Source of the DNA: an uncultured Chloroflexia bacterium
GTDB lineage: Bacteria > Chloroflexota > Dehalococcoidia > DSTF01 > JALHUB01
Direction: 5' to 3'
Length of the DNA stretch: 64,000 bases
Assembly (NCBI GenBank): GCA_963703345.1
Contig: OY969814.1
Location: 1,961,130 to 2,025,129, forward strand
The notes beneath the pieces were generated by a model. The model saw only the letters and a program-made list of their open reading frames with translations. It was not told the origin of the DNA and made no database searches. Below, one piece after another: positions 4,464-37,881 of the stretch. The translations under genes and the position numbers were made by a program. Each line of letters opens with the position of its first letter. Within the stretch, counting starts at the first letter, position 1.

Positions 4464-6716
<2,253 letters not shown>

Positions 6717-6902
6717 GAGTCTGCTCCTTCGCTCTCGAATTGTCGCCCGGTAGGGAGTCGCTCAGCGGTTTGGAGGCTTCCCTCCGACCATGCGAAGTCT
6801 AGCAAAGGGTTCTTTCAATAAGCAACCGAGGATGGCCGTTTCTTGCAACGGATTTCACAAGAGAGTAAGCTCGGGCCCGACGGGGCGCAAACGTAGACTA
6901 GG

Positions 6903-7646
6903 ATGGCCAGAGTGGCAAACGTGCTCGTCATCAGCGCCGACCTGCCGACGCGAGACCTGTTGCGCGCCTGCTTGGTTGAGGATGGGCACCTCGTTGGCGC
7001 CTGCCACGAGCCGGCGGCCGCGCCGCGTCTCTTCGCCACGCTCGCCTTCGACGTACTTTGCCTCGACGTCCATGTCGCAGAAAACAACGTCGACGATCTT
7101 CTGCGCTGGCTGCGGGCAGACGGCGATCATTCGGAGATCCCGGTCCTCTTCGTGCTGCCGCCGAGCCGTCGCTGGTTGCCTGCCGCAATCTCAGCGCAGA
7201 TCCGGCCGGACTTGGACGACAGCCTGACGATGCCGCTGGACGCCGGCCGTCTCAGGGAGAAGGTCCAGCGCCTTCTTTTGCGCCGGCCATCGGCCGCTCA
7301 GCCGCGCGTCCTTCGCCTGCCGCCGCTCGTCCTCGACCGCGACACGCACGATCTCGCATCCGGCGGGAAGGTAGTTAACCTTACACCGACCGAGCACCGT
7401 CTACTTTTATATCTAATGGAGCGGCCGGGAGAGGTCGTGGCGGGCGATGAGCTCTTGGAGACAGTGTGGGGCTTTCATCCCGGCACCGGCTCGGCGTCTG
7501 TCGTCCGAGTGCACGTCGGTAACCTGCGGCGGAAGATGACGAGTCTTGGCCAGGGCCGGCTTCTGGAGACACTCCCGCACCGAGGATATCGTCTGCGTGC
7601 GGAGGACACCAAAAGGTCGGTCCCGGGGGAGACGGCTGACGAATAG
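6903..7646 (+). CDS. OmpR-family winged-helix response regulator with an atypical/degenerate receiver domain
   Basis: C-terminal trans_reg_C (LTPTEHRLLLYLMERPGEVVAGDELLETVWG...RVHVGNLRRKM...GYRL); the receiver lacks the N-terminal acidic pair; no cognate kinase nearby. Confidence 0.7.
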   Translation: MARVANVLVISADLPTRDLLRACLVEDGHLVGACHEPAAAPRLFATLAFDVLCLDVHVAENNVDDLLRWLRADGDHSEIPVLFVLPPSRRWLPAAISAQIRPDLDDSLTMPLDAGRLREKVQRLLLRRPSAAQPRVLRLPPLVLDRDTHDLASGGKVVNLTPTEHRLLLYLMERPGEVVAGDELLETVWGFHPGTGSASVVRVHVGNLRRKMTSLGQGRLLETLPHRGYRLRAEDTKRSVPGETADE

Positions 7647-29736: not shown

Positions 29737-30546
29737 ATGAGCGTGAACGTTGGCGCAGCCTTCAGGCGGCCGGGCGGCATCCAGGCCGTCGCCGATGCGC
29801 TATCTGACATAGAAGCGGTGGCCCAGCGGAACCTGATCACCTATTTCCGGGTGCCGCAGTTGCTCGTCTTCTCGAGCATTCAGCCGGTGATCTTCGTGCT
29901 GCTGTTCCGCTATGCGTTCGGCGGCGCAATTCGAGTTCCGAACGGCAACTACGTCGACTTCCTGTTACCGGGCATCTTCGTCCAGACGACGGTGTTTGGC
30001 GCGATAGGCACGGCGGTCGGCTTGGCCACCGACCTGCAAACCGGTCTGCTGGAACGCTTTCGCTCGCTGCCGATGTCTCGCGCGGCCGTGCTGGCGGGCC
30101 GGACGACGGCCGAGCTGGGCCGAAACGTGTTGGTGCTCGCGCTGATGGTAATCGTGGGGTTAGCGGTGGGCTGGCGGCCTCACACCGACGCGCAGTCGTT
30201 CATCGTCGCGATGGGCCTCGTGCTGCTGTTCGGCTATGTGTTCTCGTGGATATTCGCCGGCGTCGGGCTGCTGACGCGGGACCCGGAGGCGGCGCAGGCG
30301 GCGGCCTTTCCCGTGCTGGCGGTGCTCGTGTTCGCCTCCTCGGCTTTCGTGCCCACGTCAACGATGCCCGGCTGGTTGCGGGTGTACGCGGAGCATCAGC
30401 CGGTGTCGGTCACGATATCGGCGGTGCGGACGCTACTGCTGGGCGGGTCGGCGCTGCCTGACGTGCTGAAGACTCTGGCCTGGATGGCCGGCATTCTCGC
30501 CGTATTCGCGCCGCTCTCCGTATGGCGCTATCAGCGAACGACGTAG
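29737..30546 (+). CDS. ABC-2 family transporter permease
   Basis: 6-TM ABC-2 pattern; start is 3 nt after the ATPase stop. Confidence 0.8.
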   Translation: MSVNVGAAFRRPGGIQAVADALSDIEAVAQRNLITYFRVPQLLVFSSIQPVIFVLLFRYAFGGAIRVPNGNYVDFLLPGIFVQTTVFGAIGTAVGLATDLQTGLLERFRSLPMSRAAVLAGRTTAELGRNVLVLALMVIVGLAVGWRPHTDAQSFIVAMGLVLLFGYVFSWIFAGVGLLTRDPEAAQAAAFPVLAVLVFASSAFVPTSTMPGWLRVYAEHQPVSVTISAVRTLLLGGSALPDVLKTLAWMAGILAVFAPLSVWRYQRTT

Positions 30547-30747: not shown

Positions 30748-30816
30748 CCACCCTCCTTCTGCCAAGGTGAGGCCGGAAAGAAAGAGTGGTGGCACAAGCC
30801 GCCACGATCGCGGCGA

Positions 30817-31491
30817 TTACTCGATTTTGGCTCCCTTGGTGAGATTGTGGCGCGCGCATAGAATTCGAACGTTGTTCGGTGTGAGGCCCGTGCCGCCTTT
30901 GGAGAAGGGTAATTCGTGATCGAAATGCAACTGGTCTTCTGCGCCGCACATCACGCACCGACCCTTGTCGCGTTTGTAGACAACTTGCTTCACCCATGCG
31001 GGGATAGCCCGACGAAACTGCGCAGACTCGGCTGTCTGCCGGGCCTCGTCTGGCTGATCCGACAGCCGCATGCGGAACTTGAAGACTCTCCGCGCGCCCG
31101 CTCCGGCGTAATCGCAACCGACCAACTCAAACAGACCTTTGTCTGACCAAATCCCAGGGCGAAGCTTCTCGTAGACCCGGACGAGGCACTTTCCCGCGGG
31201 GAAAGAGGCCGCCGCCCTGGCGAACTTCGCGTTTTCCGTCGGGTCGCCGGAAGGAAGAGCCCACGGTTGATCCACAGACTTGGGCTCGATGCCTAGCTGT
31301 CTCTTCTCATCATGGCCTTCATAGAGAAGTTCAGAGCCGTCAAGCGACAACGAGTCTTCATACGGCGCGCCCGGCCGGCGAGACATAAGCACGACGGAAA
31401 CAGCAGGCGGCTCGCGGTAGTACATGCCGCGCTGCAATGACCCCTTCTCCCGAGCGCACATTTCCCAGTAGGTCAGGATCTCGTCGCGCAA
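30817..31491 (-). CDS. SRA(YDG)-like domain + HNH nuclease, a putative modification-dependent (type IV) restriction endonuclease
   Basis: C-terminal HNH (CVMCGAEDQLHFDHELPFSKGG...NVRILCARHNLTKG); N-terminal VVLMSRRPGAPYEDSLSLDGSELLYEGHD resembles the SRA/YDG fold (YEDxxDxG...YxGxG); the start ATG overlaps the uvrA stop. Confidence 0.6.
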   Translation of the reverse strand: MRDEILTYWEMCAREKGSLQRGMYYREPPAVSVVLMSRRPGAPYEDSLSLDGSELLYEGHDEKRQLGIEPKSVDQPWALPSGDPTENAKFARAAASFPAGKCLVRVYEKLRPGIWSDKGLFELVGCDYAGAGARRVFKFRMRLSDQPDEARQTAESAQFRRAIPAWVKQVVYKRDKGRCVMCGAEDQLHFDHELPFSKGGTGLTPNNVRILCARHNLTKGAKIE

Positions 31492-31494
31492 GAT

Positions 31495-34404
<2,910 letters not shown>

Positions 34405-34658
34405 GGCTCCTTTGTCGGGGTAGTTGCGTTCAGTCCGAACGTCTATTTTAGCATTTCGGGAAGAGGGCGAACAACGGATCCCCGTTCATCGTTCGCAGAG
34501 TCGGCTCGTTTGCCATGCGGATCTTCCCCAGCGGCCGTATTCGTCGGTTCCCCTTGACAGGTCACCAGTCGTATGGTACTGTTCCTATGGCTTCAGTTGC
34601 CACTGGCACACTTGCTATGTACCCAGAGCACTGATATCATATTGAAAGAGGCAGGCAA

Positions 34659-35129
34659 ATGGAAAAAGACGAGAACCAGAAGCGCGCGATCGAGATCGCC
34701 GAGGCGGAGGTTAGCTACTGGCGGGAGGAGGTGGTGCGTGCGAAGGAGCGCTCTGAGAAGGAAATCGCACGATACCAGGAGGTCGCCGAGAAGTTCAGAA
34801 CGGCCGCAGAGTTCCTCGGCCTCGTCGAGGAGCGCTACGGAAGGAGTGTGAAGTCAGGGCCCACCCAACTGCCCCCGGGTGCCAAGCTGGGTGAAGCCGC
34901 TCTTGATGTTGTTAGGCAAAAGGGTCGGGCCACGAGGGAGGAGATTGTCGCTGAACTGCGCGCTCGTGGTTTCGAGTTTGGCAGATATCCCGCGCGGCAA
35001 CTGCATTTCGCCCTGCTCAATAGCGACAGGGTGATCAGGGAGCCTAGCGGCGCCTGGCGGTGGAAAGGTGCAGACCAGAAAGAAATGGCGCTGGCCAGCG
35101 AAGGCGCCAGGGAGCCGACGAGAGAATAG
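34659..35129 (+). CDS. hypothetical protein: N-terminal coiled coil, C-terminal possibly winged-helix-like domain
   Basis: MEKDENQKRAIEIAEAEVSYWREEVVRAKERSEKEIARYQEV...GRATREEIVAELRARGFEF...; SD agagg; sits in a locally lower-GC region between uvrA and tRNA-Ser. Confidence 0.5.
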   Translation: MEKDENQKRAIEIAEAEVSYWREEVVRAKERSEKEIARYQEVAEKFRTAAEFLGLVEERYGRSVKSGPTQLPPGAKLGEAALDVVRQKGRATREEIVAELRARGFEFGRYPARQLHFALLNSDRVIREPSGAWRWKGADQKEMALASEGAREPTRE

Positions 35130-35184
35130 AATTTGGGGCAGGCCCGCCAGTCAAAGCTAAGGCCTGCCCCACGAACCTACCGGT

Positions 35185-35273
35185 GCCGGTGTGGTGAAAT
35201 TGGGAAACACAGCCGTCTTGAAAACGGTCGTGGTTTCGACCACTTGGGGGTTCGAGTCCCCCCACCGGCACCA
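35185..35273 (+). tRNA. tRNA-Ser (anticodon TGA), class II tRNA with a long variable arm
   Basis: Acceptor GCCGGTG/CACCGGC, D stem GTG/CAC, anticodon stem GCCGT/ACGGT with loop CTTGAAA, variable arm CGTGGTTTCGACCACTTG, T arm GGGGG-TTCGAGT-CCCCC, encoded CCA. Confidence 0.85.
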
Positions 35274-35405
35274 GATAGCTCTTGCCCCGGGAGAAAGGCC
35301 GCAAGCGCAGCCGCTTCCCGCGTTCCATTCTAATACATCGGTCGATACAGCGTGTCAACACATCCTCCGGGCGCAACGGCCCGGACTGGCCGACTGAAGG
35401 TCATT

Positions 35406-35477
35406 CCTAGAAGGGCTTTGGGAAATCAGGGGGACACCGCCTGAAACCCCCGGAAGAGGGGGAACATCCCCCTCTTC
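35406..35477. repeat. copy A of a ~57-nt intergenic repeat, with a nested 10-bp hairpin GAAGAGGGGG-aacat-CCCCCTCTTC
   Basis: CCTAGAAGGGCTTTGGGAAATCAGGGGGACACCGCCTGAAACCCCCGGAAGAGGGGG is about 75% identical to copy B at 37037-37091. Confidence 0.6.
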
Positions 35478-35498
35478 ACTCCCCTTGCGACGCAGAAG

Positions 35499-36137
35499 TC
35501 AAACGCGGGATTCGAACTCGTCGAGCTTGCGTTCGAGGTCGCGCTGACGGACCGCGAGGGTCAGGTCGCCGCGGGTGCGCTCGAGGATGCCGCGGACGGC
35601 GTCGGCGGTGCGACGGAGGCCGCTGGTTATTGCCTCCGGGTAGTCGAACGTGACGAGAAGGCTGTAGATGTCGTCCATATTGCCGAGGCAAACTTCGCAC
35701 TGGCTGACGTCGCCGGAGCGTAGGGCATCGAGCAGGTGGCGTCGCAGCTCGCCCACCGCTTCGCCGAGGCCGTTCAGATAGGCGCCGTTTTCGACGCCGA
35801 GGTCCTTCGGGCCGGGCAGCGGTCGAGCGGCGATGAGGGCGAGGGTGGTGCAGCCTTCCGCATACTCCTTCTGGGCGTCGTGGACGAAGCCGGCGAAGTA
35901 GATGTCCGGATGGTCGGCGAGGGCGAGGCGGGCGCGCTCGAGGAGCTCGGCCGCCTGGCGCAGGAGCTCTTCGGCGCCGGGGAAGTCGCCGCGGTGGGTA
36001 ACGCGGACGGCGTTGGCGGAATGGCGCAGGGCCTGGCGGCAGGAGGCGAGACCGATCTCGCGGGCGGCGTGCTTGGCCTCGAAGTCTTTTCGAGTGTTCT
36101 CGACGATTGCTTCCAGCTCCTTGCTGCGGTCGTACAT
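35499..36137 (-). CDS. translin-family protein (bacterial translin/TRAX-like)
   Basis: All-helical, 212 aa; ...AAREIGLASCRQALRHSANAVRVTHRGDFPGAEELLRQAAELL...YAEGCTTLALI...NGLGEAVGELRRHLLDALRSGD...LRRTADAVRGILERTRGDLTLA matches the translin pattern (…SRxAIxxLHRG…AEELLxEA…EYxEA…GLxDLxGELRR…LRxKqDvaRglvErTRgdltla). Confidence 0.6.
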   Translation of the reverse strand: MYDRSKELEAIVENTRKDFEAKHAAREIGLASCRQALRHSANAVRVTHRGDFPGAEELLRQAAELLERARLALADHPDIYFAGFVHDAQKEYAEGCTTLALIAARPLPGPKDLGVENGAYLNGLGEAVGELRRHLLDALRSGDVSQCEVCLGNMDDIYSLLVTFDYPEAITSGLRRTADAVRGILERTRGDLTLAVRQRDLERKLDEFESRV

Positions 36138-36153
36138 CGGCTTCTCCTTCAGC

Positions 36154-36489
36154 CTAATCGGTTAGAGGCGGCGGCAGGTCGCCTTCGCGGGCGGCGTCGA
36201 TCATCTTGCGCGTCTGGCCAGGCATCTCTTCGCCCATCTCTTTGAAGCGTCGCTCGACCCAGCGGCCGATCTGGCGCGGGTCGCGGTAGTCTTCGAGGCG
36301 TTTGGGCTCGCTGCCGTACTTGGCGAGGATGGTCTGCTCAGACTTATGGTAAGCGAAGCCGGAGACGGCGCGGGAGAGGTTGGCGCCGCCGCAATGACGG
36401 CAGCTAGCGGCGACTCCGCCGCTGATGGACTTGACGAAGACGCTGGTCAGGCGGCCGCAGTCCTGGCACTTGTATTCGTAGATCGGCAT
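36154..36489 (-). CDS. FmdB-family zinc-ribbon protein, copy 1
   Basis: MPIYEYKCQDCGRLTSVF...CRHCGGANLSRAVS has the CxxC...CxxC Zn ribbon of PF09723; the start was moved to the MPIYEY ATG. Confidence 0.75.
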   Translation of the reverse strand: MPIYEYKCQDCGRLTSVFVKSISGGVAASCRHCGGANLSRAVSGFAYHKSEQTILAKYGSEPKRLEDYRDPRQIGRWVERRFKEMGEEMPGQTRKMIDAAREGDLPPPLTD

Positions 36490-36532
36490 GGTTGAGCCTA
36501 CGTCGCGATTCAGTCCACAGACAATATAGCAG

Positions 36533-36907
36533 TTATTCCTCTTCGAGGGGAAAGGCGCCGCCGTCCTCGTCCTCACCGATGTCGTCGGGCATTTCGCCGG
36601 CTTCCATCCGGTCGATCATCTCTTCGAACTCCGGCTCCACCTCCTCGCCCATCTTCGACTGCACCTTGCGAGCGAAGGCGGCGACGCTGCGCGGGTCGTC
36701 TTCATCGACGCCGGACAGGAGGGAGTCGTCGTCAAGGGAGTCGAGGCGCTGGTCTTCGGTGCGCACGACGGCGAAGCGGGAGACAAGGCGCGTCAGGTCG
36801 TCGGCGCCGCAATTCGGGCAGACGGCAGGCGTCGATGAGCTTATCGAGCGCCGGAAGACGGTGACGCGCTTCTTGCACCGGTTGCAGCGGAATTCGTAGA
36901 TGGGCAT
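36533..36907 (-). CDS. FmdB-family zinc-ribbon protein, copy 2, with an acidic C-terminal tail
   Basis: MPIYEFRCNRCKKRVTVF...CPNCGADDLTRLVS, then a D/E-rich tail; tandem paralog of copy 1. Confidence 0.75.
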   Translation of the reverse strand: MPIYEFRCNRCKKRVTVFRRSISSSTPAVCPNCGADDLTRLVSRFAVVRTEDQRLDSLDDDSLLSGVDEDDPRSVAAFARKVQSKMGEEVEPEFEEMIDRMEAGEMPDDIGEDEDGGAFPLEEE

Positions 36908-37036
36908 TTCTATTCGGCTTTCAGCCAAGCCCGCAAACGGAGTCGATTTCGCCGTATCGCGCAAGCACGCCAACGGCGTCGGTGCTCTCGCCGTAACATC
37001 GGCGATCTATTTCCCACCCGCCCGCCCTAGGAGGGT

Positions 37037-37091
37037 TTCTTGGGAATCAAGGGGACACCCCTTGAACCCTCCTCCAGAGGCGGACCTTCGG
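37037..37091. repeat. copy B of the ~57-nt intergenic repeat (nested hairpins GGAGGGTT...AACCCTCC and CAAGGGG-aca-CCCCTTG)
   Basis: CCTAGGAGGGTTTCTTGGGAATCAAGGGGACACCCCTTGAACCCTCCTCCAGAGGCGG. Confidence 0.6.
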
Positions 37092-37140
37092 CCGGCAAAG
37101 GGGCTTCGCCCTCTGCACTCCCTATTCGGGCAACCATCCG

Positions 37141-37881
37141 TCAAGCCGAGGACAGGCGGCGGCCGACGATCTCCTCGCGGCTGGGGCAGAGGGCCTGGTA
37201 GTCGCAGAAGGCGCAATGCCTGCCCACGTTCGTCTGGTAGTCGCGCTCCGTCACTATTTCGTTGTAGGCGGCGGTCACGGCGGCGACGGCCTCTTCCAGC
37301 TCTCGACGCTGCGGGCTCGTTGACCATGCGGAGCCGTCGTCGAGATAGAGGTACGAGGCGCGGCCTACGGGACGGCCGAGGCCCCTCTCCAGCATCACAG
37401 CATAGATGTGAAGCTGTTGAACGTCGATCTCCTCCGGGCGGCGGCCGGTCTTGTAGTCGATTATGTGAAGTCCGTCGGCATCGTCGTCAACGCGGTCGAT
37501 GCGGCCGAGGAGGGCGAGCTGGGCGCTGATCGGCGTCTCGAGATAGGACTCGAGGAGGAGCGGACGGGCGGCGAGATCGTTGCTGCGGGCGAAGCTGTGG
37601 AGCTGGTTCGTCGCGCGTTCCCGCCAGCGCTCTTCGTCTTCGAGGTCGCTGAAGCCGGAGCGATTCTGCTGCCAGCTTTCGTGAAGGAGGTCGAGGAGTC
37701 GCTCGGGGGTGCGTTCAGCCGGTTCGGGCAGGGAGAAGAAGGCTTTGAGGGCGTTGTGGACGTGGGCGCCCATTGTGTTGTAGGGGGAAGGACGCGTGGG
37801 CAGGCGCTCGACGTACTGGTATCGGTAGCGCCGGCGGCACTGGCGGAAGACGCGGAGGCGGAAGGATGAGAGTTTGAACAT
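37141..37881 (-). CDS. PD-(D/E)XK nuclease, Cas4/RecB-like, with a putative Fe-S cysteine cluster; stand-alone with no CRISPR-cas nearby
   Basis: IIDYKTG (D-ExK core), C-terminal CAFCDYQALC plus an N-terminal Cys, as in Cas4/AddB-type Fe-S nuclease domains. Confidence 0.7.
   Translation of the reverse strand: MFKLSSFRLRVFRQCRRRYRYQYVERLPTRPSPYNTMGAHVHNALKAFFSLPEPAERTPERLLDLLHESWQQNRSGFSDLEDEERWRERATNQLHSFARSNDLAARPLLLESYLETPISAQLALLGRIDRVDDDADGLHIIDYKTGRRPEEIDVQQLHIYAVMLERGLGRPVGRASYLYLDDGSAWSTSPQRRELEEAVAAVTAAYNEIVTERDYQTNVGRHCAFCDYQALCPSREEIVGRRLSSA

What the first reader, a model, noticed from the sequence alone, without database searches (positions are those of the whole stretch)
30817..31495. 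SRA(YDG)-HNH putative type IV restriction nuclease translationally coupled to uvrA
The 224-aa ORF has an unmistakable C-terminal HNH motif (CVMCGAEDQLHFDHELPFSKGG...NVRILCARHNLTKG). Its N-terminal domain (...VVLMSRRPGAPYEDSLSLDGSELLYEGHD...) resembles the YDG/SRA modified-cytosine-binding fold, as in TagI and ScoMcrA-type modification-dependent endonucleases.

Its ATG (31491-31489) overlaps the uvrA stop (31495-31497) by one base, so it would be co-transcribed with excision repair. Coupling a DNA-damage sensor with a modification-dependent nuclease is unusual. It could be a defense island nested in a repair operon or a repair-associated accessory nuclease.
Basis: partly seen in the sequence, partly recalled or inferred. 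Interest (0 to 1): 0.55.

Follow-up and report, generated by a model that had tools for sequence, protein, structure and literature searches.

The report
Compact SRA-HNH nuclease behind uvrA
A small gene sitting 3 bases after the DNA-repair gene uvrA encodes a nuclease whose front half has the fold that recognises methylated cytosine, so it is most likely an unannotated member of the known class of restriction enzymes that cut modified foreign DNA. Its attachment to uvrA is inherited within one Chloroflexota lineage and is not a general repair feature.

Summary
The ORF is real: 30817-31491 on the minus strand, 224 aa.

Two details are wrong. The start codon is TTG, not ATG. It lies 3 nt after the uvrA stop, with no overlap, and a GGAGG Shine-Dalgarno-like sequence sits inside the uvrA 3' end.

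An AlphaFold model (pLDDT 81) matches only SRA domains at the top of the lists:
- Foldseek: E = 1e-6.

So the SRA-HNH reading holds. The family is large, with about 600 clusters at 50% identity and at least 322 species across bacteria and archaea. Pfam and PADLOC recognise only its HNH part, and it has no detectable sequence similarity to TagI.

Outside Chloroflexota it sits among defence genes. These include N4/N6-methylase restriction-modification cassettes, DUF2075 helicases and inverted-repeat-bounded mobile cassettes. No C5-methylase lies nearby. This fits a modification-dependent (type IV) restriction enzyme.

The uvrA pairing, with a 2-3 nt spacer, is conserved in 11 related loci. It is absent from 66 other uvrA loci.

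Verdict: a new member of a known kind. A repair role is unsupported but not excluded.

The parts
34636..34665 (-). Promoter-like site upstream of uvrA; candidate promoter of the two-gene uvrA/SRA-HNH transcription unit
   Evidence: Consensus scan, 9 of 12 hexamer matches. This is weak evidence. No promoter-like site was found between it and the SRA-HNH start.
31495..34404 (-). uvrA, 969 aa, canonical class I UvrA (stop TAG at 31497-31495)
   Evidence: ORF list. Pfam UvrA_inter E = 7e-37, UvrA_DNA-bind E = 5e-36, two ABC_tran stretches.
31500..31506 (-). Shine-Dalgarno-like GGAGGGG inside the last codons of uvrA, 8 nt before the TTG start
   Evidence: Read directly from the sequence. Purine-rich equivalents occur at the same place in relatives L002, L010, L008, L012 and L013.
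31492..31494 (-). 3-nt spacer (ATC) between the uvrA stop and the SRA-HNH start; no overlap
   Evidence: Sequence. Spacers of 2-3 nt occur in L010, L002, L006, L008, L012 and L013.
30817..31491 (-). SRA-HNH gene, 224 aa, TTG start at 31491-31489, stop TAA at 30819-30817
   Evidence: 2644 homologues. Purifying selection.
31057..31491 (-). N-terminal SRA-fold domain (residues about 1-145). The putative flipped-base pocket residues Y44, D46 and Y57-E58-G59-H60-D61 are invariant across the family.
31003..31056 (-). Variable, predicted-disordered linker (residues about 146-163)
   Evidence: pLDDT 39 for residues 151-160. This is the least conserved stretch of the alignment and contains indels.
30820..31002 (-). 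C-terminal HNH (beta-beta-alpha-Me) nuclease domain (residues about 164-224). Zinc ligands are C179, C182, C212 and H215. Catalytic residues are D191-H192, N207 and N216.
30789..30805 (-). Terminator-like hairpin 12 nt after the SRA-HNH stop, marking the end of the transcription unit; the next gene is convergent
   Evidence: Consensus scan. The ABC-2 permease gene 29737..30546 is on the + strand.

Best explanation
The gene encodes a compact SRA-HNH endonuclease of the modification-dependent (type IV) restriction kind.

Proposed mechanism:
1. The N-terminal SRA domain binds duplex DNA and flips a modified cytosine (most likely 5-methyl- or 5-hydroxymethyl-cytosine) into a pocket. The pocket is lined by the invariant Y44 and Y57, with an invariant carboxylate (D46).
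2. A flexible linker of about 18 residues tethers a zinc-stabilised HNH domain (C179/C182/C212/H215; D191-H192...N207...N216).
3. The HNH domain nicks or cuts DNA at a short distance from the modified base, probably as a dimer as in TagI.
4. The host's own DNA is spared because it lacks the recognised modification.

In this Chloroflexota lineage the gene was captured at the 3' end of uvrA. It is co-transcribed with uvrA. It is probably translated at a low level by ribosomes that finish uvrA, given the 3-nt spacer, the SD-like run inside uvrA, the weak TTG start and the atypically low GC3.

Shown here: the ORF, the fold, the conserved catalytic and pocket-candidate residues, the family's distribution, its defence and mobile contexts, and the operon anatomy.

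Inferred: which base is recognised, cleavage activity, dimerisation, co-transcription, and the biological role.
For: Fold:
- The AF2 model has mean pLDDT 81.
- Foldseek agrees independently: SUVH5 SRA E = 1.4e-6, ScoMcrA E = 6e-6.

Sequence:
- 5 of 44 family members hit Pfam SAD_SRA, best E = 8.7e-5. All 44 hit HNH.
- Y44, D46, Y57EGHD61, Q75, N87, Y107EK109, W115 and the HNH/zinc residues are at least 97% conserved across 85 sequences from many phyla.

Context in other taxa:
- The immediate neighbours of 70 non-uvrA loci include 7 SLFN-g3/DUF2075 helicases, 3 MvaI/BcnI REases and 2 BsaWI REases. They also match PADLOC models PDC-S41, Nhi, AbiO, DRT, bSEFIR and mREase_IV.
- Every adjacent DNA methylase found is of the N6/N4 type.
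- No M.HhaI-like C5 methylase occurs in the window or in the 89 loci held at the time of that search.

Mobility:
- There is 96.6% DNA identity over a 2.45-kb MTase-REase-SRA-HNH cassette between an archaeal MAG and a gammaproteobacterial MAG. The same inverted repeats of about 80 nt bound cassettes in three phyla.

uvrA linkage:
- Only one fixed residue difference (position 141) separates the Chloroflexota clade that holds the uvrA-linked copies from the rest of the family, so the biochemistry is probably the same.
- A survey starting from uvrA found 0 of 66 other uvrA loci carrying the gene.

Published biochemistry of the same architecture:
- TagI and ScoA3IV cut 5mC/5hmC DNA (PMC6212794, PMC4333417, PMC6765204).
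Against: - No biochemical datum exists for any member of this family.
- The window protein itself gets no SAD_SRA hit.
- A family profile finds no SRA protein in the PDB by sequence.
- hhalign against a UHRF1 SRA sequence is not significant (E = 0.34). The pocket assignment therefore rests on sequence register and conservation, not on an inspected superposition.
- The Tyr-Tyr spacing is 13 residues, against 12 in TagI and UHRF1. The conserved Asp is at +2 rather than +3, so the specificity may differ.
- The gene has been inherited alongside uvrA down to about 70% UvrA identity, diverging only slightly faster. Such stability is unusual for a restriction gene.
- The family was not found in viral contigs. 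Full-length copies were not found in sequenced phages or plasmids.
Confidence: 0.68

Rival explanations
1. Repair-associated nuclease. In this lineage the SRA domain flips a damaged or mispaired base, such as deaminated or oxidised cytosine, or a crosslinked base. The HNH domain nicks beside it and works with UvrA in excision repair. Co-translation with UvrA would therefore reflect a shared pathway.
For: - The stop, 2-3 nt, start junction with uvrA is conserved in 7 loci, and the pairing in 11 loci.
- The pair persists although the flanking genes differ between subclades.
- The protein's divergence tracks UvrA's: 88/90, 83/89, 79/73 and 64/72% identity.
- SRA domains are base-flippers, and HNH enzymes are often nickases (PMC6212794, PMC6765204).
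Against: - The family is mostly found away from uvrA, in defence and mobile contexts.
- The Chloroflexota clade that holds the uvrA-linked copies differs from the rest of the family at only one fixed position, and not in the pocket.
- Members nested inside the uvrA-linked clade (L014, L015, L003, L018) sit elsewhere.
- 0 of 66 other uvrA loci at 61-79% identity have it.
- Its GC3 stays 11-30 points below that of uvrA in every lineage, like a foreign or deliberately under-expressed gene.
Confidence: 0.08
2. Same architecture, different ligand. It is a modification-dependent nuclease whose SRA pocket reads something other than 5mC/5hmC. Candidates are a hypermodified pyrimidine, glucosylated 5hmC or another phage base.
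For:
- The Tyr-Tyr spacing is one residue longer, and the Asp is shifted (TagI residues from PMC6212794).
- SRA enzymes differ in which cytosine adducts they accept (PMC6212794, PMC6765204).
- The tight linkage to N4/N6-methylase R-M cassettes shows only that those particular marks are tolerated.
Against: - All characterised SRA nucleases read C5-modified cytosine.
- The best structural matches are 5mC readers.
- No direct evidence points to another ligand.
Confidence: 0.15
3. Selfish HNH element. It is a free-standing homing-type or addiction-type nuclease that inserts just downstream of conserved housekeeping genes and persists by hitch-hiking, with no benefit to the host.
For: - It is repeatedly found a few bases after the stop of housekeeping genes: uvrA, ddl (4 loci, 5-nt gap) and ornithine carbamoyltransferase.
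- Its GC is lower than that of its flanks in 86 of 89 loci.
- Near-identical copies occur across phyla.
Against: - A conserved base-flipping reader domain is not a feature of homing endonucleases.
- It is absent from phage, plasmid and viral collections.
- No intron or intein context is present.
- Strong purifying selection over deep divergence argues for host benefit.
- The mobile copies travel inside inverted-repeat-bounded defence cassettes, not alone.
Confidence: 0.05

Closest known systems
TagI / ScoA3IV (Sco5333) / TbiR51I: the characterised SRA-HNH family of type IV restriction endonucleases
   Same: - Same two-domain order, N-terminal SRA then C-terminal HNH.
- Flexible interdomain linker.
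- CxxC zinc motif in the HNH domain.
- No cognate C5-methylase nearby.
   Different: - No detectable sequence similarity: a family profile against PDB sequences does not find TagI at E <= 10.
- Shorter, at 224 aa against 285 aa for TagI.
- The acidic residue precedes the catalytic His (D191-H192), whereas TagI has Ala there and uses a downstream Asp (PMC6212794).
- The last zinc ligand is His here and Asp in TagI.
- The taxonomic range is much wider than the 'mostly Actino- and Proteobacteria' reported for ScoA3IV homologues (PMC6765204).
- No activity data exist.
ScoMcrA (SBD-SRA-HNH, phosphorothioate- and 5hmC-dependent)
   Different: ScoMcrA has an extra sulphur-binding domain and is about 530 aa. 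Nothing equivalent is present here.
MspJI / LpnPI / AspBHI (SRA fused to a PD-(D/E)XK nuclease)
   Different: The catalytic domain is of another fold. These enzymes are tetrameric.
Eukaryotic SRA/YDG domains (UHRF1, SUVH4/5/6)
   Same: - The sequence landmarks share the same register: Y...Y.G, DQ, VRV, G-aromatic.
   Different: - They are readers only, with no nuclease.
- The 'YDG' triplet is replaced by D117-K118-G119 (SDKGLF).
- Sequence similarity is statistically insignificant.
EVE-HNH (VcaM4I/TspA15I) and EcoKMcrA
   Same: A modified-cytosine reader fused to an HNH domain, with type IV logic.

Membership tests
SRA-HNH modification-dependent (type IV) restriction endonucleases | N-terminal domain with the SRA (SET and RING associated / YDG) fold | tested here: met
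   [not shown]
SRA-HNH modification-dependent (type IV) restriction endonucleases | Sequence-level membership in Pfam SAD_SRA (PF02182) | tested here: inconclusive
   The window protein has no hit at E <= 1. 5 of 44 close homologues hit SAD_SRA, best E = 8.7e-5.
SRA-HNH modification-dependent (type IV) restriction endonucleases | Flipped-base pocket with two aromatic walls and a carboxylate that reads the cytosine Watson-Crick edge (TagI Y55/D58/Y67; UHRF1 Y466/D469/Y478) | tested here: inconclusive
   Y44, D46 and Y57 are invariant in 85 sequences and fall in the matching sequence register. However, the spacing differs by one residue, the hhalign match is not significant, and the model coordinates could not be superposed and inspected.
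SRA-HNH modification-dependent (type IV) restriction endonucleases | C-terminal HNH beta-beta-alpha-Me domain with the catalytic His, Asn residues and a structural zinc site | tested here: met
   Pfam HNH E = 7.5e-5, above the cut-off. C179, C182, D191, H192, N207 and N216 are invariant in 44 sequences, and C212 is nearly so. H215 is invariant in those 44 but does not reach the 90% list across 85 sequences.
SRA-HNH modification-dependent (type IV) restriction endonucleases | Cleavage stimulated by 5mC/5hmC in the substrate | not testable with these tools
   Needs in vitro digestion, or transformation and phage assays.
SRA-HNH modification-dependent (type IV) restriction endonucleases | No cognate C5-cytosine methyltransferase encoded alongside | tested here: met
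The adjacent methylases in R-M-linked loci are of the N6_N4_Mtase type. Whole genomes were not searched.
TagI/ScoA3IV sequence family specifically | Detectable sequence homology to TagI or ScoA3IV | tested here: not met
   A profile of 44 family members against all PDB sequences, which include TagI (6ghs) and ScoMcrA (5zmm), gives no SRA-protein hit at E <= 10.
Type II restriction-modification system | Nuclease paired with a cognate DNA methyltransferase in the same locus | tested here: not met
   None of the window genes scanned next to it (uvrA, the ABC transporter genes and the genes upstream of uvrA) matches a DNA methylase family. In R-M-linked loci a separate, recognisable type II REase (MvaI/BcnI or BsaWI) already pairs with the methylase.
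Nucleotide-excision-repair accessory gene | Co-occurrence with uvrA across taxa, beyond one lineage | tested here: not met
   The linkage occurs in 11 loci of one Chloroflexota clade. It is found in 0 of 66 independent uvrA loci. Most family members lie elsewhere.
Free-standing HNH homing endonuclease | Phage, intron or intein context, with spread into cognate empty sites | tested here: not met
   No family member in IMG/VR contigs. In GenBank phages and PLSDB plasmids only the HNH part matches.

The most novel reading that the evidence does not exclude
In this Chloroflexota lineage a mobile type IV-like SRA-HNH nuclease has been domesticated into the uvrA operon. It is made in fixed, low stoichiometry with UvrA by translational coupling. 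It acts on the cell's own DNA, flipping and nicking at modified or damaged cytosines and handing them to excision repair. Alternatively, UvrABC repairs the collateral nicks it causes. Either way this would be a functional link between restriction-type base readers and nucleotide excision repair, kept for as long as UvrA itself has diverged to about 70% identity.
Probability: 0.08. Interest if true: 0.7.

Novelty: new member of a known kind. Interest (0 to 1): 0.38.

Why it matters
- The work adds a large family to the SRA-HNH modification-dependent nucleases. It comprises about 600 clusters at 50% identity and is found in bacteria (including candidate phyla radiation (CPR) lineages) and in archaea. 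Pfam, NCBIfam and PADLOC see only its HNH part, and the screened databases call it 'hypothetical' or simply 'HNH endonuclease'.
- At 224-231 aa, these compact enzymes are candidates for new epigenetic tools that cut 5mC/5hmC DNA, and defence-system catalogues should include them.
- The uvrA attachment is a clean example of a defence gene borrowing a housekeeping operon for low, constitutive expression and then being kept for a long time. That bears on how 'accessory' such genes really are.
- It does not by itself reveal a new mechanism.

Tried and rejected
1. Sequence searches of the protein and of a 44-member profile against PDB sequences found only weak HNH or spurious hits and no SRA protein.
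I use it only as a lead.
3. NCBIfam and PADLOC match only the HNH part: IscB, Cas9d and REase_II.
4. IMG/VR viral contigs hold no relative. GenBank phages and PLSDB plasmids match only the HNH part.
5. The AFDB50 fold library was not available.
6. The look-up of the exact protein returned only a 1-kb contig and not the 2.28-Mb source contig. The host genome could therefore not be checked for methyltransferases or for uvrB/uvrC. The cluster look-up gave no names or accessions.
7. I considered a Vsr-like role, meaning T:G repair next to C5 methylases. I rejected it because every adjacent methylase found is of the N6/N4 type and no C5 methylase lies nearby.
8. I considered that uvrA might be a UvrA2-type paralogue. 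I rejected this because the UvrB-interaction and insertion DNA-binding domains are both present.
9. The literature search for SRA domain + HNH + uvrA found nothing relevant.

Full report
**Observation**

The minus strand carries a 224-aa ORF at 30817..31491. The sequence around the junction reads ...GGA GGG GTG TAG ATC TTG CGC GAC....
- uvrA ends with TAG at 31497-31495.
- Three bases (ATC) follow.
- The ORF then starts with TTG at 31491-31489.

The rest of the description is right. This covers the length, the HNH stretch (residues 179-220), the N-terminal stretch (residues 33-61) and the identity of the upstream gene. That upstream gene is a canonical 969-aa UvrA with the UvrB-interaction and insertion DNA-binding domains.

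Homologues support the TTG start. They begin at the same position with (M/L/V)RDEILTYWE and are nearly all 220-231 aa. A GGAGGGG run at 31506-31500, inside the last uvrA codons, is placed like a Shine-Dalgarno sequence.

The consensus scan found three things (this is weak evidence):
- a terminator-like hairpin 12 nt after the stop (30805-30789);
- a promoter-like site upstream of uvrA (34665-34636);
- no promoter-like site between that one and the ORF.

The anatomy is that of a two-gene unit, uvrA then the nuclease gene. It faces a convergent ABC-transporter operon.

**Is it a real gene?**

Yes.
- 2644 database proteins match at E <= 1e-3, and the best 120 are 64-100% identical over the full length.
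- Against five relatives, codons that differ only synonymously outnumber amino-acid-changing codons: 59/25, 65/35, 85/40, 104/46 and 97/56.

**What the protein is**

Pfam recognises only the C-terminal HNH domain (PF01844, E = 7.5e-5). NCBIfam and PADLOC also match only that part.

The catalytic and structural residues expected of a beta-beta-alpha-Me nuclease are present. They are invariant or nearly so in the 44-sequence alignment:
- a CxxC pair (C179, C182) plus C212 and H215 for zinc;
- D191-H192, N207 and N216 for catalysis.

All but H215 also reach the 97% conservation threshold across 85 sequences.

The N-terminal 150 residues are even better conserved than the HNH part, yet they have no family assignment.

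An AlphaFold2 model built on the 44-sequence alignment is confident. Mean pLDDT is 81, with 71-93 across residues 1-150 and a disordered linker at 151-160.

- ScoMcrA (10.4), MspJI (9.5), then AbaSI, AspBHI, SauUSI and PvuRts1I.

At the sequence level, 5 of the 44 family members reach Pfam SAD_SRA (best E = 8.7e-5). The window protein does not.

**Pocket**

Published structures put the flipped cytosine between two tyrosines, with a carboxylate reading its Watson-Crick edge. These are TagI Y55/D58/Y67 (PMC6212794) and UHRF1 Y466/D469/Y478 (UHRF1 numbering from memory).

The family has invariant Y44, D46 and Y57, followed by an invariant E58-G59-H60-D61. It also has the further SRA landmarks D74-Q75, N87, V104-R105-V106 and G119-L-F.

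That comparison is not statistically significant (E = 0.34). In addition, the Tyr-Tyr spacing is one residue longer and the Asp sits at +2 rather than +3.

I treat the pocket as likely present but its ligand as unproven.

**How the family is distributed**

- The N-terminal domain alone finds 597 representatives of 50%-identity clusters at E <= 1e-3. Almost all are about 220-240 aa, so the architecture is fixed.
- In one genome per GTDB species, 322 stretches encode a relative. The best 80 come from Chloroflexota, Patescibacteria/CPR, Omnitrophota, Acidobacteriota, Gamma- and Deltaproteobacteria, Bacteroidota, Ignavibacteriae and archaeal MAGs. They are still 46-52% identical to the query over the full length.
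- None was found in IMG/VR. In GenBank phages and PLSDB plasmids only the HNH part matches.

**Genomic context outside the uvrA clade**

I called ORFs in the loci and clustered and scanned the neighbours immediately beside the gene. Among 139 flanking proteins of 70 loci:
- 7 are Schlafen-group-3/DUF2075 helicase proteins. Their PADLOC matches are PDC-S41, Nhi and AbiO.
- 3 are MvaI/BcnI restriction endonucleases and 2 are BsaWI restriction endonucleases.
- Others match type II methylases, DRT reverse transcriptases, bSEFIR, a type IV methyl-directed REase, and the PDC-S14, PDC-S63, PDC-M45C and mad proteins.
- The rest are housekeeping genes, such as ddl in four Syntrophaceae/deltaproteobacterial loci and ornithine carbamoyltransferase.

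In the restriction-modification loci the order is methylase, REase, SRA-HNH, with 1-3 nt between genes. The methylases are all of the N6_N4 type.

This is what is expected if the nuclease attacks C5-modified cytosine. It can live beside N4/N6 methylation but not beside C5 methylation. The published survey of PUA-superfamily nucleases likewise found that they rarely sit near DNA methylases (PMC6765204).

**Mobility**

- The three-gene cassette is 96.6% identical at the DNA level over 2452 bp between a Thermoplasmatota MAG (L049) and a gammaproteobacterial MAG (L070).
- The SRA-HNH gene plus about 150 bp downstream is 90-99% identical in a Patescibacteria MAG (L074) and another gammaproteobacterial contig (L058), beside different genes.
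- The same composite inverted repeats of about 80 nt bound the cassette in L070, L074 and L049.

The family therefore moves between phyla inside inverted-repeat-bounded defence cassettes.

**The uvrA link**

uvrA lies directly upstream in 11 loci besides the window: L002, L006, L007, L008, L010, L011, L012, L013, L019, L020 and L021. All are Chloroflexota/Dehalococcoidia.

- The junction is stop, 2-3 nt, then TTG or ATG in L010, L002, L006, L008, L012 and L013. Purine-rich runs lie just before it.
- Identity of the nuclease to the window copy tracks identity of UvrA. The pairs are 88/90, 83/89, 82/90, 79/73, 64/72, 63/72 and about 60/64-70%.
- The pair persists although the outer flanks differ between subclades.

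The pair was therefore formed once, early in this lineage, and has been inherited vertically under purifying selection.

The linkage is not universal.
- In a neighbour-joining tree, L014, L015, L003 and L018 nest within or beside the uvrA-linked group but sit in other contexts, such as DUF488 and DUF1786 genes and a small-molecule methyltransferase.
- A survey that started from the UvrA C-terminus retrieved 80 metagenomic uvrA loci at 61-80% identity. None of the 66 with at least 800 nt of downstream sequence carries the gene.

Only one position (141, M versus L) is a fixed difference between the Chloroflexota clade that contains the uvrA-linked copies and the rest of the family. There is thus no sign of a change of function.

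**An oddity**

The gene's GC3 is 0.70 against 0.89 for uvrA in the window. In the eight uvrA-linked relatives compared it is 0.61-0.71 against 0.79-0.95. Family-wide, the gene is GC-poorer than its flanks in 86 of 89 loci.

Synonymous sites are heavily diverged between these relatives, so this looks like a maintained property rather than a recent import. It may reflect selection for poor codons and low expression of a dangerous nuclease. That would fit the weak TTG start seen in 5 of the 8 tightly spaced uvrA junctions, window included. This is an inference and remains unexplained.

**Interpretation**

The best-supported reading (about 0.68) is a type IV, modification-dependent SRA-HNH restriction endonuclease of a sequence family not previously linked to TagI/ScoA3IV. 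In this lineage it is lodged at the end of the uvrA transcript and is probably translated by coupling.

Rival readings:
- Same mechanism but a different modified base (about 0.15). The pocket differs in detail.
- A genuine repair partner of UvrA (about 0.08). Only the conserved synteny favours it.
- A selfish HNH element (about 0.05).

**Comparison with what is known**

SRA-HNH enzymes are an established kind (PMC4333417, PMC6212794, PMC6765204, PMC7461809). This protein meets two defining features, the SRA fold and the HNH active site. It also shows the expected lack of a nearby C5 methylase, within the limits noted above.

It fails the test of sequence homology to TagI. Its modification dependence cannot be tested here.

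It is therefore a new member, and a separate sequence family, of a known kind rather than a new kind.

The literature search found no report of an SRA-HNH gene coupled to uvrA. By the evidence above, that coupling is a lineage-specific matter of gene order and expression, not a new pathway.

**Verdict**

- Interest is moderate to low (0.38).
- The most novel reading not excluded is a domesticated base-flipping nuclease working with excision repair (probability about 0.08).

Noticed in passing
L070:3296-7357; L074:2066-5822; L049:742-3267: The same composite inverted repeats of about 80 nt flank cassettes that end with the SRA-HNH gene but carry different cargo. L049 and L070 carry an N6_N4 methylase plus an MvaI/BcnI REase. 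L074 carries a 930-aa SMC/AAA ATPase. The cassettes are 90-97% identical in DNA between an archaeal MAG, Gammaproteobacteria and Patescibacteria. No transposase lies inside. This looks like a non-autonomous, inverted-repeat-bounded carrier of defence genes that crosses domains, or else a binning artefact.
   Followed up: partly
L070:5686-7269: A TIR/SEFIR-domain gene (5774-7228) is inserted immediately after the SRA-HNH stop. It is flanked by a 46-nt direct duplication (5686-5731 and 7224-7269, 93% identical). This looks like a secondary insertion of another defence gene into the cassette.
   Followed up: partly
window 30817-31491 versus 31495-34404, and loci L002, L006, L010, L012, L013, L019-L021: GC3 of the SRA-HNH gene is 11-30 points lower than that of the co-inherited uvrA in every lineage (0.70 versus 0.89 in the window). 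Family-wide, the gene is GC-poorer than its flanks in 86 of 89 loci. This is a maintained compositional anomaly with no tested explanation.
   Followed up: partly
L032, L038, L042, L045, L047, L065, L082 (gene directly upstream of the SRA-HNH homologue): Seven loci from Omnitrophota, Gammaproteobacteria and unclassified bacteria have a Schlafen-group-3/DUF2075 helicase protein of up to 802 aa immediately upstream on the same strand. The one scanned individually (L032) also has a C-terminal Peptidase_S24-like domain. The gap or overlap is small. This is possibly a two-gene helicase plus SRA-HNH defence system.
   Followed up: no
L041, L048, L053, L056: In four Syntrophaceae/deltaproteobacterial loci the homologue sits directly after the D-Ala-D-Ala ligase gene (ddl), within about 5 nt in three loci and overlapping it by a few bases in the fourth. 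This is a second case of the nuclease gene being attached to the 3' end of a housekeeping gene.
   Followed up: no
window 34424-35499: Relative to the syntenic loci L002 and L006, the window has an extra segment between uvrA and the conserved 212-aa gene (35499-36137). The segment holds a 156-aa plus-strand ORF with no Pfam match (34659-35129) and tRNA-Ser(TGA) at 35185-35273.
   Followed up: no
window 35499-37881 (minus strand): A conserved block lies upstream of uvrA and is shared with L002 and L006. It consists of a PD-(D/E)XK/Cas4-like nuclease (37141-37881), two Zn_ribbon_8 proteins (36154-36973) and an unannotated 212-aa protein. In the relatives, RNase HII and a UPF0102/NERD protein precede it. 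This is a nucleic-acid-processing neighbourhood of unknown purpose.
   Followed up: no
L001:12096-12626 (= L018:9102-9311): A second, shorter HNH protein (176 aa) lies 3.4 kb from the SRA-HNH homologue in this Chloroflexota contig. It is 45% identical to the HNH part of the query.
   Followed up: no
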